Assembly (NCBI GenBank): GCA_964016885.1 | Contig: OZ024759.1 | Coordinates: 11,408,001 to 11,472,000 of the forward strand | Direction of reading: 5' to 3' | Length of the DNA stretch: 64,000 nt | From: Eledone cirrhosa | Taxonomy: Eukaryota | Shown: piece by piece, positions 19,909 to 45,322 of the stretch | How the letters are laid out: every line of letters begins with the position of its first letter | Numbering within the stretch: the first letter of the stretch is position 1 | The notes under the pieces: generated by a model | Databases searched by the model: none | Seen by the model: the letters and a program-made list of their open reading frames with translations, nothing else | Told to the model about the DNA's origin: nothing | Position numbers and translations under genes: made by a program

Positions 19909-20032
19909 GAAGGCCAGGGCAAATGGTTTTCCTTAGATAGTGAATTGATCATGAAGAATGGGGAAATTATTGGAACAAGAGGCTCCACTGGTCACAGCAT
20001 TCTTATTGATGCCCGATTTGAACTTCCCTATG
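19909..20032 (+). CDS. unc-13: Internal coding exon of UNC-13/Munc13, C-terminal part of the C2A domain
   Basis: Acceptor ttttctgttttccag|GAA, donor TATG|gtaaga, 124 nt, phase 0 to 1. Translation EGQGKWFSLDSELIMKNGEIIGTRGSTGHSILIDARFELPY aligns without gaps to UNC13A [41 protein letters not shown] (recalled, not searched). The ORF track shows this region only in the wrong frame. Confidence 0.92.
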
Positions 20033-20141
20033 GTAAGATTTTTAACAGTAATTTGTAATTTTGGGATAGAATATATGTATGTATGTATGTATGTATGTAT
20101 GTATGTATGTATGTATGTATGTATGTATGTATGTATGTATG

Positions 20142-20806
20142 TCAGGTCACCAGTTGGTGCTACTGGTAACATGTATCCCAGTACAACCTGTCCCATGGTC
20201 GGGTCGTTGGCGACTAAACTGGCAACCCCACCAAGGTTTCTTGGTGAGGAGGGTGACTTTGGACATCCTGCAGGACTAAAAACAAAACCTGTCAAAGGGC
20301 AAAGGAGCTCTTAAGAGTCAATGGCCATCCAAAATCACCGGGAGAGATGACCCCTTAGCCTTTGTCAAGGCAGAATTCTAGGAGAAGGAAAACTCTGATA
20401 TAACACCTGCAACCCTGATGGTATCCAATGATGTTGACTTGTTCTTCTTTTTGGTAAATATCATCTTGGTTAAGAGAGTGGGACTGGCTTTGTGCAGTGC
20501 CTTTGCTCACTATAAAAGCTTCACGGCACAGGCATTGCTTTATATCTGGAGATCTCTCTGCACTTGTCGTCACATGGTACCATGGGCCCAGCACTATGTG
20601 TCAGTAATTGTCACAAGTGTAGTGTTTGTACCAGAGTTTTCAAGTCGCTGGCTGGACTAAAAAGTCACACTCGTTCAGCGCATCGGTAGGGGTTCTCCTA
20701 CATGGATATAAAGTAGTGGCCGTACTCGAAAACGAGTTGGCAGCCACCATGTATGTATGTATGTATGTATGTATGTATGTATGTATGTATGTATGTATGT
20801 ATGTAT
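20142..20806 (+). mobile_element. Non-autonomous bipartite RTE(BovB-like)-derived element with (ATGT)n tail
   Basis: RTE-like 5' UTR motif GGAGAAGGAAAACTCTGA fused to a terminal C2H2 finger [23 protein letters not shown]; no RT; embedded in (ATGT)n. Confidence 0.7.
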
Positions 20807-20807
20807 G

Positions 20808-21092
20808 TTGGTTAAGAGAGTGGGACTGGCTTTGTGCAGTGCCTTTGCTCACTATAAAAGCTTCACGGCACAGGCATTGCTTTATTTCTGGAGATCTCTC
20901 TGCACTTGTCGTCACATGGTACCATGGGCCCAGCAATATGTGTCAATAATTGTCACAAGTGTAGTGTTTGTACCAGAGTTTTCAAGTCGCTGGCTGGACT
21001 AAAAAGTCACATTCGTTCAGCGCATCGGTAGGGGTTCTCCTACATGGATATAAAGTAGTGGCCGTACTCGAAAACGAGTTGGCAGCCACCAT
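20808..21092 (+). mobile_element. Tandem 5'-truncated second copy of the same element
   Basis: Near-identical to 20467-20750. Confidence 0.85.
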
Positions 21093-21173
21093 GTATATAT
21101 GTATATATATATGTATGTATGTATACTTTTTTATTTCTTTTCTTTTTGTGGTGTGAGAGACTCTTAGTCTTCA

Positions 21174-21451
21174 TTAACCCTTTAGCATTTAAACCAGCCA
21201 TATCTGGCTAGAATTTTCTCACCTCTTTCTGTTTAAACCGGTCGTAACTGGCTGCTCATACTTATGTTACGGTATTGTTCTCAAAATAAATATCAAAATC
21301 TCATAGATTCAATATTATGTGAGATAATTATGAGAAATAAAGCCTGTACTGTGAAAATACAAGAGTAAATATAGAGAAATATAGAGAAATAAAGCTTGTA
21401 CTGTGAAAATACAAGAGTAAATATAAAGTAACGTAAATGTTTAAGGGTTAA
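21174..21451. mobile_element. piggyBac-like MITE
   Basis: TTAA-CCCTTTAGCATTTA...TAAATGTTTAAGGG-TTAA termini; related copies at 48582-48797 and 54445-54560. Confidence 0.75.
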
Positions 21452-21937
21452 AACATCTCTAGGAGATGGCCATTCTGATATAAAACATGCAACTTTATTT
21501 GTGTCCAATGATGTAGACCAGTTCTACCTTTTAGGCAAATGCATTCGATGTTCAGAGAGTGGAATTGGCCCCGTGCAAAGTCTTTCCTCACTTAAAAAAG
21601 ATTCAAGCACAGGCACCACTTGATATGTGACATTTTTTACGGTGCATGGTATTGCTGGCCATAGGCAAGACCCTACCTGGACTAAAAAACCACGTCTGTG
21701 ATGCTCATACTTTAGTATCAAGCGATGGCATTACTTGAAGTCGAGTTGCAAGCAGGGAAAAGCGGACGTAAAATGATGATGATGATGATGATGATGTATT
21801 TGTTTTGCAAATTTGTGATTTGTGATGTGAAACTGTTGAAACCGATATTGTTACACGTGGGGATGGTGCAGTTGCAGGTATTGCCAATAAAAAGAAACAC
21901 ATACACCATATGATTTTCACTTTATCTTTATTACTAG

Positions 21938-21943
21938 TTATTG
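21938..21943 (+). CDS. unc-13: Candidate 6-nt microexon of unc-13 (adds V-I)
   Basis: ttttcactttatctttattactag|TTATTG|gttagt; 3n length, phase 1-1, open in frame. Confidence 0.4.
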
Positions 21944-42040: not shown

Positions 42041-42369
42041 TATATATATATATATGTATACATATAGAAACCACTGGTAAATGGAATAATTGCCTTATGT
42101 TGTTTATTACATAACTATATACATATATATAAAATAACATTGTTATCTTAGATATACATCATCAACATCCACAAATATAAATAATTAGTATATATACAAA
42201 GACCCCCCCCCCCCCAACAATAAAGTATATATGTTTGAAATAGGTTTGTTATGTTATTTATTATTTCTATTTTATTAAATACCAATAAACTATCAATCTA
42301 TAAACTATCAGGTTTGATCTGCAACAAATTATGGGAGAGACTGTTAACATATGTTGAAAAACTTTCCCG

Positions 42370-43500
42370 CTCTCTCTCTCTCTCTTCCCCTCCCTCTCCC
42401 TTCTCTTCCTCTCCCTTCTCTTCCTCTCCCTCTCCCTTCTCTTCCTCTCCCTCTCCCTTCTCTTCCTCTTCTTCTCTATCTCTCCTCTCTCCTCTCTCCT
42501 CTCCTTTCTCCCCTCCCCCTTCATTTTCATGCTCATTTTTCTGTCTTTATATTATTCCTCATATATATGTATATATATATATATATATATATATATATAC
42601 ATATATGTATCTATATGCACATTTATATATATGCTTATATAAATACATAGATGTGTATATGGATATATATATATACATATATATACATATATATATATAT
42701 ATACATACATACATACATATATACACACACATATATATATATACACATACATACATATATATGCATGCATATATATATATAAATACACACACACATACAT
42801 ATATGCATGCATATGTATAAATATACACACACATACATATATGCATGCATATGTATAAATATACACACACATACATATATGCATGCATATATATAAATAC
42901 ACACACACATACATATATGCATCTATATGTATAAATATACACACACACATACATATATGCATCTATATGTATAAATATACACACACACATACATATATGC
43001 ATGCATATGTATAAATACACACACACATACATATATGCATGCATATATATAAATATACACACACATACATATATGCATGCATATGTATAAATATACACAC
43101 ACACATACATATATGCATGCATATGTATAAATATACACACACATACATATATGCATGCATATGTATAAATACACACACACATACATATATGCATGCATAT
43201 GTATAAATATACACACACATACATATATGCATGCATATGTATAAATATACACACACATACATATATGCATGCATATGTATAAATATACACACACACATAC
43301 ATATATGCATGCATGTATATATAAATATACACACACATACATATATGCATGCATGCATGTATATATAAATATACACACACACATACATATGACTGCATGC
43401 ACATGTATATAAATATAAACACACACACATACATATATATATATAAACATACACACATACATACATATATATATAAATATACACACACATGAATACATCC
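42370..43500. repeat. (CT)-rich tract followed by an about 36-40-bp TA/CA/ATGC minisatellite
   Basis: Seen directly. Confidence 0.9.
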
Positions 43501-43996
43501 ATACGTATATTTATAGGTTATTATTCTTTCGTTTTGTTTTATTTTTTCCATATTAGAAATATCTCTTCTCTTATATTTTCTATATAATTCAGATTCACTT
43601 ATTATTAATGGTTTCTCTCTTTTAGCTCAGTTCCTTTAATATGGAAGCATTCTTCAAAATTGTCAACTTCATTTTTTTTATTTTCAAATATATATATATA
43701 TATATATATTTTTTTTCATTTCATTTCAAATTTATTACAGAATTGTAATATAATTCACTTTAAATATTCTGCAAATCTTGCATGTAAATTGATAAATTTA
43801 TTGGCTTTCCAGTTTAAGAGAAGAATTTAGATTCCTTCATTTATTTTACCATTATTGTAAATAACTCAATAAAAATGAGAAGTGACAAGTTTCATAAATG
43901 TTCTGTTGGAACTGGGATAAAATCTTTAATTTACTCTACATTGAAATGAGAAGAAAATATCAATAGAATTCCACTAAGCTATGAATGAGGTTTTCT

Positions 43997-44660
43997 TTAA
44001 CCCTTTTGTTGCCAAATTGCCTAAAACCACTCAGGGTTCTACAATATATAACTGTTTGTTTTAGTGTTTATATTTATCAGAAAATTTATTTTATTTTATA
44101 TAAGAACCTTTGTTATGGTATATCCCCAACACTCCTGGTTCTATGATACTAAGCTGTTTGTTTTAAAGTGTTTATATTTATCTAAAAACCTTCCATTATT
44201 ATTTTATATACAAACTTTTAAGTCATGTTCCAAACACTCTTGGTTCTATGATACAAAACCGTTTGTTTCAAAGTGTTTATATTTTTATCTAAAAACCTTC
44301 CATCATAATTTTATTTAAGAATCTTTAAGCTATGTTCCAAACACCTCTGGTTCTATGATACAAAGCTATTTGTTTTAAAGTGTTTATATTTATCAGAAGA
44401 CCTTCCATCATAATGTTATGTAAGCACTTTTATGTTAAGTTATGTTTCAAACATCCCTGGTTCTATAATATAAAACTCTCTATTTTAAAGTGTTTATATT
44501 TATTGTAAAACATTTCATCATAATTTTATGTAACAACCTTTAAGTTGTGTTCCAAACACAAGCTTAACCATTTTGACACCTATCTGCCCGAGAACACCTG
44601 TAGTTCTTTGACACAAAATAATTATTTAAAACCCTTCCATCATAATTTTTGTTATATTTT
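43997..44660. repeat. Degenerate about 120-bp tandem repeats of a piggyBac-like MITE segment
   Basis: Starts ttaacccttttgttgcc; recurring tgttccaaacac...ggttctatgatac...ttttaaagtgtttatatttatc. Confidence 0.6.
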
Positions 44661-44700
44661 ATTTTGTACAAATAAACCCTTTCAAGAGCATGTTAATTTG

Positions 44701-44871
44701 GTCCAAAATATTAAAAGACTTAGATAGAGAAGGTATTCTCCGATTCACTTGTGTGTGCTGGGGGGCCTGGATCACTAACAAGGCAGCTAAGCAATCAGGA
44801 GTGATTATCCCAATTTTCAAAACGAAGACAAGAGAGATTGCTTTAATTATAGCAGGATCTCCTTGTTAAGG
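44701..44871 (+). mobile_element. Short relic of an RTE-type LINE RT N-terminal region
   Basis: ILKDLDREGILRFTCVCWGAW...SGVIIPIFK/EDKRDCFNYSRISLL matches the IIPIFKKGD...CxNYRGISLL motif, with a frameshift. Confidence 0.7.
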
Positions 44872-45313
44872 CCTCTTATTGTCTAGCAAAGAGATCTAGG
44901 GATATTGTCCAACATAATTTTATGTAAGAACCTTTCTTAAGTTATGTTCCAAACACCAGATAAATAATAGGATAGCTAGTTACATTACTAAATCCCACTA
45001 GTCTCTCATATTCAAAATTTTATCTGTTTTTTCTTTCTTTCCATATCTGTTTTGCAATATATCTGTTATACATCATATCTATTTTCTACCATAAATGTCT
45101 TATACTTATGTTTTCTTTCACATCTCTTTGATATTATATCTGTTTTCTCCCATATCTGTTTTGCAATATATCTGTTTTCTCCCATATCTGTTTTGCAATA
45201 TATCTGTTTTCTCCCATATCTGTTTTGCAATATATCTGTTATGCATTATATCTGTTTTCTATCATACCTGTCTTATACTTATCTGTTTTTTCTTCTTTTC
45301 TTTCAACCTCCAG

Positions 45314-45322
45314 ACTGGGAAG
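45314..45322 (+). CDS. unc-13: Candidate 9-nt microexon of unc-13 (adds D-W-E)
   Basis: tgttttttcttcttttctttcaacctccag|ACTGGGAAG|gtatgt; strong acceptor and donor; phase 1-1. Confidence 0.65.

What the first reader, a model, noticed from the sequence alone, without database searches (positions are those of the whole stretch)
19909..45322. Candidate cascade of in-frame microexons (6+9+9 nt) immediately after the UNC-13 C2A domain
Seen: after the phase-1 donor of the unc-13 exon, three widely spaced islands of non-repeat sequence each show a pyrimidine tract, YAG, a 3n exon ending in G and a GT donor. They are TTATTG|gttagt (21938-43), GATATGAAG|gtattt (36965-73) and ACTGGGAAG|gtatgt (45314-22). 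All are stop-free in the phase set by the upstream exon, giving ELPY-VI-GYE-DWE, and any subset preserves frame (up to 8 isoforms). Known: C2A mediates the Munc13 homodimer/RIM heterodimer switch, the residues just C-terminal to it contribute to RIM zinc-finger binding, and neural microexons in bilaterians are typically 3n and SRRM/eMIC-regulated. Inference: a combinatorial microexon set that inserts acidic and aromatic residues at the C2A boundary, which gene predictors would miss. The 6-nt candidate is the weakest.
Basis: partly seen in the sequence, partly recalled or inferred. Interest (0 to 1): 0.85.

Follow-up and report, generated by a model that had tools for sequence, protein, structure and literature searches.

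The report
Six duplicated microexons in octopus UNC-13
The octopus gene for the synaptic release protein UNC-13 carries six tiny look-alike exons (9-15 bases) along one 120-kb intron that together add 23 mostly acidic and aromatic residues at the hinge predicted to grip its partner RIM, and their likely variable inclusion would tune neurotransmitter release.

Summary
The 120,556-nt intron after the last C2A exon of an octopod unc-13 holds six paralogous in-frame microexons (9, 9, 12, 15, 15, 9 nt; GYE, DWE, ADWE, ARNWE, ARNWE, GYE); four lie beyond the window and were found in the genome before transcript evidence for them. In 4 of 4 runs laid (4 organisms), a contig splices the C2A exon to the first three plus a base fitting the fourth; a RefSeq Octopus sinensis model holds all six in order; a more distant relative's protein has only the first two. 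The 6-nt candidate is in 0 of these 6 sequences and scores at background level. Snails and bivalves have an unrelated optional 4-residue insert at the same junction. The site is the linker between C2A and the helix that, in rat Munc13-1, clamps the RIM zinc finger. Combinatorial or neural-specific splicing is not shown; most evidence shows joint inclusion. It is not the known worm/fly unc-13 microexon, and I found no paper describing it.

The parts
19909..20032 (+). 124-nt constitutive unc-13 exon, last strands of C2A, phase-1 donor
   Evidence: spliced to the previous exon in 3 of 4 contigs, the fourth starts inside the exon
21938..21943 (+). 6-nt candidate; probably not an exon
   Evidence: background-level signals; absent from 4 of 4 contigs, P0002 and P0412
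36965..36973 (+). microexon A, 9 nt, GYE
   Evidence: included in 4 of 4 contigs, P0002, P0412
45314..45322 (+). microexon B, 9 nt, DWE
   Evidence: included in 4 of 4 contigs, P0002, P0412
20033..64000 (+). First 44 kb of the 120,556-nt intron. It runs on past the window and there holds microexon C (12 nt, ADWE, G000:C20:11475732-11475743), D (15 nt, ARNWE, 11495421-11495435), E (15 nt, ARNWE, 11522892-11522906) and F (9 nt, GYE, 11535919-11535927), then the next constitutive exon (80 nt, from 11548589).
   Evidence: C included in 4 of 4 contigs; C-F in P0412; next exon 27 of 27 residues identical to P0412

Best explanation
Six phase-1 microexons, likely tandem copies of one ancestral unit, splice into octopod unc-13 mRNA and lengthen the linker right after the C2A domain by up to 23 mostly acidic and aromatic residues, which is predicted to change how the C2A-plus-helix clamp binds RIM, with the number of copies included likely varying between cells or lineages. 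Shown: the six exons exist, keep frame in every subset, and A+B+C are spliced in series in four organisms; all six are in one relative's gene model. From the literature: in rat Munc13-1 the C2A sandwich and the following helix bind opposite faces of the RIM zinc finger across an extended linker, and residues past 132 are needed for tight binding. The exon junction aligns directly after the L131 equivalent. Inferred: a longer, net-negative linker (8 acidic, 2 basic, 6 aromatic residues) shifts the homodimer-to-RIM-heterodimer balance and so vesicle priming. Inferred: inclusion is regulated, as the unrelated 4-residue insert at the same junction appears to be in snails and bivalves.
For: Exons D, E, F and C were found by genomic scans before any transcript evidence for them; then confirmed (A+B+C in 4 of 4 runs; subset matching: P0412 = exactly A-F, P0002 = exactly A+B). 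The shared exon-end motif has a pyrimidine tract and in-frame acceptor in 6 of 7 plus-strand matches in this intron and 0 of 19 matches elsewhere in 344 kb, both strands. Flanks of the copies share no unique sequence beyond the splice region (output partly cut) while exons A/F are identical and D/E differ only silently, which points to selection on the peptide. Position: alignment, passages, and AlphaFold2 models placing the insert between the last strand and the conserved helix. Hints of variable use: P0002 has only A+B; the X16 contig ends exactly 45 nt after the exon, the end of a 15-nt exon following A+B+C; with-and-without forms of the molluscan insert in 5 of 10 clusters.
Against: No binding or physiological test exists. 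No within-species pair of isoforms was seen for the octopod array: 4 of 4 contigs begin A+B+C, and the one RefSeq model found has all six. P0002 may reflect fewer copies in that lineage, not skipping. A single contig end is a weak hint. The rat structure shows the linker packs poorly on the zinc finger (only L131), so extra length could be neutral. The modelled insert has low confidence (pLDDT about 56-62). Tissue of the runs is unknown. UGC motif in only 1 of 6.
Confidence: 0.5

Rival explanations
1. The six microexons are real but included as one block (or constitutively): a fixed coleoid or octopod linker extension that grew by exon duplication, with copy number differing between lineages, not between cells.
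For: 4 of 4 contigs from 4 organisms show the same A+B+C start; RefSeq P0412 has all six; no skip-all cephalopod sequence was recognised among 336 junction-spanning proteins.
Against: Contigs drop minor variants; only 30 loose letters were shown; X16 ends at an exon boundary; three of six donors are weak in my rough score and C has an AAG acceptor; the same junction is optional in other molluscs.
Confidence: 0.3
2. The repeats are docking motifs for a new partner, not a RIM tuner: tryptophan-acidic motifs of the kind that bind kinesin-1 light chains would couple UNC-13 to axonal transport.
For: Exons B and C give W flanked by D and E; such motifs are defined as a tryptophan flanked by acidic residues (PMC6214655 passages). 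Selection on repeated W/Y-E fits a motif better than a plain spacer.
Against: The quoted examples read EWD, not DWE; exons D and E have N before W; the motif is short and degenerate.
Confidence: 0.12
3. Inclusion builds an Atg8-family interacting (LIR) motif: every microexon ends in W-E or Y-E and the next exon starts D-L, so any non-empty subset gives [W/Y]-E-D-L, which would route UNC-13 to presynaptic autophagy.
For: Sequence directly; core consensus [W/F/Y]-x-x-[L/I/V] with acidic residues before it (PMC7615515 passages).
Against: Only the last included exon completes the motif, so it does not explain six copies; such four-letter matches are common; untested.
Confidence: 0.05
4. One reading: three microexons including the 6-nt one, up to 8 isoforms.
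For: The 6-nt candidate has AG, a GT donor, keeps frame; its V-I loosely resembles the V-V of the molluscan insert.
Against: 0 of 6 transcript-derived or transcript-like sequences include it; background-level score; lacks the family's exon-end motif.
Confidence: 0.03

Closest known systems
Conserved 9-nt unc-13 microexon (VLK) of nematodes and Drosophila; 6-nt in mammalian Unc13c (PMC12287369; abstract, passages and section 14 read)
   Same: Same gene family; tiny frame-keeping exon whose inclusion differs between neuron types and alters transmission.
   Different: Single exon between the calmodulin site and C1, not after C2A; 'C2A' occurs 0 times in that paper; no paralogous array.
Mouse Unc13b 6-nt SRRM4-dependent microexon (PMC4387716; passages read)
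   Same: Munc13 gene, neural microexon.
   Different: Lies between exons 13 and 14; single copy.
Optional 4-residue insert (DVVA, DIVA, DFVA, EAVA) in gastropod and bivalve UNC-13 gene models
   Same: Same junction; with-and-without isoforms annotated in Patella, Mizuhopecten, Haliotis, Mytilus, Pomacea.
   Different: Unrelated aliphatic sequence, one unit; no such 12-nt exon in this intron (0 hits). That it is a separate microexon is inferred from proteins only.
Flatworm micro-exon genes (MEGs) (PMC7653826; passages read)
   Same: Runs of four or more consecutive 3n micro-exons that allow variants by skipping.
   Different: MEGs are genes made mostly of micro-exons; here a local array of paralogous units sits in one huge intron of a conserved synaptic protein.
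Munc13-1 C2A/RIM2-alpha zinc-finger complex, PDB 2CJS (PMC1472246; passages read)
   Same: Homologous C2A end, linker and helix.
   Different: Vertebrate linkers among the proteins examined carry no such insert.

Membership tests
Neural SRRM/eMIC-dependent microexons | Length 3-27 nt, spliced as exons | tested here: met
   9-15 nt; A-C seen spliced in 4 of 4 contigs; D-F in RefSeq model
Neural SRRM/eMIC-dependent microexons | Frame-preserving | tested here: met
   All subsets stop-free; 64 subsets of six give 47 distinct peptides
Neural SRRM/eMIC-dependent microexons | Long AG exclusion zone and long pyrimidine tract | tested here: inconclusive
   AG-free zones 121, 312, 66, 35, 50, 47 nt against 38 and 130 for the flanking constitutive exons; tracts 21-28 of 30
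Neural SRRM/eMIC-dependent microexons | UGC motif close to the acceptor | tested here: not met
   1 of 6 (exon F) has UGC in -30..-1; feature taken from PMC8797185 passage
Neural SRRM/eMIC-dependent microexons | Genome encodes the eMIC (SRRM_C) domain | tested here: met
   One match over the PF15230 cut-off, 29.3 bits against 27, E 0.004; partial
Neural SRRM/eMIC-dependent microexons | Included in neurons, skipped elsewhere, lost on eMIC knock-down | not testable with these tools
   Runs are contigs without tissue labels
Conserved unc-13 CaM-C1 microexon (VLK) | Position between calmodulin site and C1; VLK-like peptide | tested here: not met
   Array lies directly after C2A and encodes W/Y-E units
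Flatworm micro-exon genes | Run of at least four consecutive 3n micro-exons | tested here: met
   Six in a row in P0412
Flatworm micro-exon genes | [quoted passage not shown] | not tested
   Whole gene not mapped; the flanking exons mapped are mostly longer, so unlikely
Kinesin light chain W-acidic motifs | Tryptophan flanked by D/E | tested here: met
   Exons B and C; definition
Kinesin light chain W-acidic motifs | Binding to the KLC TPR domain | not tested
   No octopus KLC sequence fetched; no complex job run
LIR/AIM motifs | [W/F/Y]-x-x-[L/I/V] core; binding to Atg8-family proteins | tested here: inconclusive
   Core present at the junction with the next exon; binding untested

The most novel reading that the evidence does not exclude
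Coleoid cephalopods evolved a microexon 'abacus' in their C2A-bearing UNC-13: six paralogous W/Y-acidic units, independently included neuron type by neuron type (up to 47 distinct peptides), that set in steps how tightly UNC-13 is clamped by RIM and so grade release probability; the array replaced an older, unrelated molluscan microexon at the same hot spot and expanded in octopods.
Probability: 0.25. Interest if true: 0.87.

Novelty: new variant of a known kind. Interest (0 to 1): 0.66.

Why it matters
[quoted passage not shown] This is a concrete, testable candidate: a lineage-specific array of duplicated microexons placed on the best-studied switch of vesicle priming (Munc13 homodimer versus RIM heterodimer). 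It also shows one junction being used twice in molluscs by unrelated short inserts, and microexons multiplying across 120 kb of intron. A few peptides and existing octopus RNA reads suffice to test it.

Tried and rejected
The 6-nt candidate as a family member: rejected. Identity with the known unc-13 microexons: rejected by position. Recent segmental duplication of intron blocks or mis-assembly as the source of the copies: blastn of 1.2-kb flanks of five of the six exons (C not included) showed only repeats and the splice regions in the part of the output I could see (output cut in the middle), and an independent species' model has the same six. A DVVA-type 12-nt exon in this intron: 0 hits. 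A further candidate at C20:11497200-11497214: not in P0412; dropped. The run search listed no holder on record as RNA; I laid 4 of the 24 listed runs, one each from 4 organisms, and the single call shows only 30 loose letters, so exons D-F were not read from contigs. Full-length cephalopod UNC-13 was not among the 120 listed of 1846 hits, and a search for short fragments gave only two intron read-through models. ESM Atlas: only C2/unc-13 clusters at score 0.77. Octopus RIM zinc finger: the five PF02318 matches did not look like RIM by eye, so no complex was modelled. A further 200-kb background fetch failed; the background rests on 344 kb. One search was a mistyped pattern (0 matches), corrected (2 matches, 0 in 100 shuffles; pattern made after seeing the exons). 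Earlier findings of the scan: none returned.
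Full report
OBSERVATION. The window is G000:C20:11408001-11472000 of a 3.0-Gb genome. Exon 19909-20032 translates to the last strands of an UNC-13 C2A domain (rat Munc13-1 chain 2cjs_A, E 2e-9). It is 42 of 43 residues identical to a RefSeq Octopus sinensis protein and the next exon is 27 of 27 identical, so the source is an octopod (inferred). 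The two 9-nt ones have strong pyrimidine tracts (28 and 26 of 30) and long AG-free zones (121 and 312 nt); the 6-nt one has 21 of 30, 43 nt and a weak donor (the donor score is my rough matrix with recalled frequencies).

THE WHOLE INTRON. A search of the genome with a relative's protein placed the next constitutive exon at C20:11548589, making the intron 120,556 nt, of which the window holds 44 kb. I fetched the rest. A strict scan that used splice signals only gave 4 plus-strand and 0 antisense candidates, all ending in the same W/Y-E codons; the looser list held a fifth among 60 rows and a motif scan found a sixth with an AAG acceptor. In order, with window numbering continued past 64000: A 36965-73 (GYE), B 45314-22 (DWE), C 67732-43 (ADWE), D 87421-35 (ARNWE), E 114892-906 (ARNWE), F 127919-27 (GYE), spaced 8-27 kb apart. 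A and F are identical, D and E differ at two silent positions, and the flanks of the five compared share only repeats and splice signals in the visible part. As a control, the exon-end motif occurs 26 times in 344 kb, both strands; it has an in-frame acceptor and a tract of 21 or more of 30 in 6 of 7 plus-strand matches inside this intron and in 0 of 19 elsewhere. The motif was drawn from the exons already seen, so this control is after the fact; the transcript evidence below is independent of it.

TRANSCRIPT EVIDENCE. (1) I laid 4 of the 24 listed runs, one each from organisms E, A, C and D, on 19850-20070. In 4 of 4, one contig leaves the exon at its donor and continues with A, B, C and one base that fits D or E (30 loose letters shown). 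In 3 of 4 the other end continues into the previous exon (compare), which marks spliced RNA; the fourth (X24, same organism code as the full DNA holders, 0 differences in 72 letters) starts inside the exon. The runs are only guessed to be RNA and have no tissue label. (2) RefSeq XP_036368007.1 (O. sinensis, P0412) reads GYEDWEADWEARNWEARNWEGYE between the two constitutive exons; of 128 subsets of the seven candidates only A+B+C+D+E+F reproduces it. It is an automated model; its read support was not seen. (3) P0002, from an unnamed 2.5-kb contig, is matched only by A+B. It is 61-95% identical to this genome exon by exon, so it comes from a more distant cephalopod-like relative (inferred); A and B are therefore old and unchanged. 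I saw P0002 before scanning the rest of the intron; C-F were predicted before their confirmation. (4) The 6-nt candidate is in 0 of these 6 sequences, and a filter at its level yields 8 antisense hits in 344 kb. Contigs drop rare forms, so rare use is not excluded.

IS IT ALTERNATIVE? Not shown. For: P0002 has two units only; the X16 contig (depth 6.4) ends exactly 45 nt after the exon, the cumulative length of A+B+C plus one 15-nt exon, as a branch would produce; three of six donors are weak. Against: all four contigs start alike, the RefSeq model has all six, and no skip-all cephalopod form was found. P0002 could equally mean fewer copies in its lineage. If inclusion were independent, 64 subsets would give 47 distinct peptides. 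The eMIC domain seems present in the genome but only F has a UGC near the acceptor, so SRRM dependence is unsupported.

EVOLUTION. Of 419 proteins held, 336 span this junction; only P0002 and P0412 have the W-E units, and 96 have a different 4-residue insert, DVVA or similar (many are isoforms of the same genes). That insert is annotated both present and absent in 5 of 10 clusters examined (Patella, Mizuhopecten, Haliotis, Mytilus, Pomacea), always present in the listed Dreissena and venerid members, and absent in listed oysters, heterobranchs and Lingula (at most 15 members listed per cluster). No such exon is in the octopod intron. Vertebrate and arthropod sequences viewed lack both. The simplest reading: the junction is an old molluscan site of optional insertion, where coleoids gained an unrelated unit and duplicated it (inferred; no tree test, no genomes of relatives available).

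MECHANISM. In rat Munc13-1 (PMC1472246, passages) residues 129-150 form a linker and helix; C2A and this helix bind opposite faces of the RIM zinc finger, the extension is needed for tight binding and also raises homodimer affinity, and only L131 of the linker packs on the zinc finger. The octopod exon ends on the residue aligning with L131 (plus the paper's numbering), so the array inserts into that linker. AlphaFold2 puts the insert between the last strand and the long helix in P0002 and in P0412, where part of it forms a low-confidence helix (residues 86-98, pLDDT about 56-62). The full insert has 8 acidic, 2 basic and 6 aromatic residues, and the zinc-finger loop that binds C2A is basic. 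I therefore favour re-tuning of the RIM clamp and of C2A autoinhibition (bioRxiv 10.1101/2024.01.24.577102, passages): position shown, effect inferred. Rivals: a fixed block; kinesin light chain W-acidic motifs (PMC6214655, passages); a LIR core completed with the next exon (PMC7615515, passages). No complex was modelled.

KNOWN WORK. The published unc-13 microexon is a single 9-nt exon between the calmodulin site and C1 (PMC12287369: abstract, passages, section 14); the mouse Unc13b one lies between exons 13 and 14 (PMC4387716, passages). Flatworm micro-exon genes are the nearest architecture (PMC7653826, passages). Searches for unc-13+microexon, Unc13b+microexon (16), microexon+cephalopod (39), tandem duplicated microexon arrays (44), Munc13+octopus+splicing (57) and microexons/octopus/eMIC (64; 25 of 55 listed) showed nothing on this array in titles and abstract starts; passages of PMC9282427, PMC8797185 and bioRxiv 10.64898/2026.09.05.749416 (0 mentions of unc-13) do not describe it. 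The library lacks most subscription papers, and I read no supplements; exon tables from comparative studies that include O. bimaculoides may list these exons. The sequence is already in an automated RefSeq model.

VERDICT. Real, larger than reported, and apparently undescribed: six look-alike microexons on the UNC-13/RIM switch of octopods (my estimates: existence about 0.97; regulated inclusion about 0.6; RIM-tuning role with variable copy use about 0.5). The 6-nt exon is probably false. New variant of a known kind; interest 0.66.

Noticed in passing
G000:C20:11629964 and about 11645950 (beyond the window; the first is L026 7964-7993): A second pair of duplicated small exons (about 30 and 33 nt, similar SCSN-type peptides) further down the same gene, present in O. 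sinensis P0412 and absent from P0002. They lie between two 60-nt paralogous stretches whose peptide repeat is also doubled in 5 of 6 other molluscan proteins checked.
   Followed up: partly
proteins P0003-P0025 and cluster members: Optional 4-residue insert at the same junction in gastropods and bivalves: both forms in Patella, Mizuhopecten, Haliotis, Mytilus, Pomacea; always present in listed Dreissena and venerid members; absent in listed oyster, heterobranch and Lingula members. No paper on it turned up in my unc-13 microexon searches.
   Followed up: partly
G000:C20:11495421-11495435 and 11522892-11522906: Exons D and E each have a second AG four bases in; using it would give an 11-nt frameshifting exon, a possible route to decay-coupled regulation.
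   Followed up: no
P0412 (XP_036368007.1), P0411, P0413: Public octopus annotations found here break unc-13 into pieces (a 388-aa N-terminal model, 49- and 112-aa fragments), which hides the C2A-bearing isoform from full-length searches.
   Followed up: partly
G000:C20 about 11569467-11569589: An exon of about 114 nt present in P0412 and absent from P0002; another candidate alternative exon.
   Followed up: no
G000:C20:11667903 (15 nt), 11697068 (12 nt), 11741372 (27 nt): Further 3n microexon candidates downstream with good pyrimidine tracts; not checked against transcripts.
   Followed up: no
G000:C22:28167743-28167880 (-): Partial SRRM_C (eMIC) match just over the Pfam cut-off.
   Followed up: no
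window 20466-21124: 342-bp tandem duplication (97% match) flanked by TATG microsatellites in the intron; much of the window is satellites and dispersed repeats.
   Followed up: no
P0138, P0261, P0065, P0037: Other one-off insertions at the same junction in scallop, Lingula, Tribolium and Acanthaster models; may be alternative splice sites or annotation errors.
   Followed up: no
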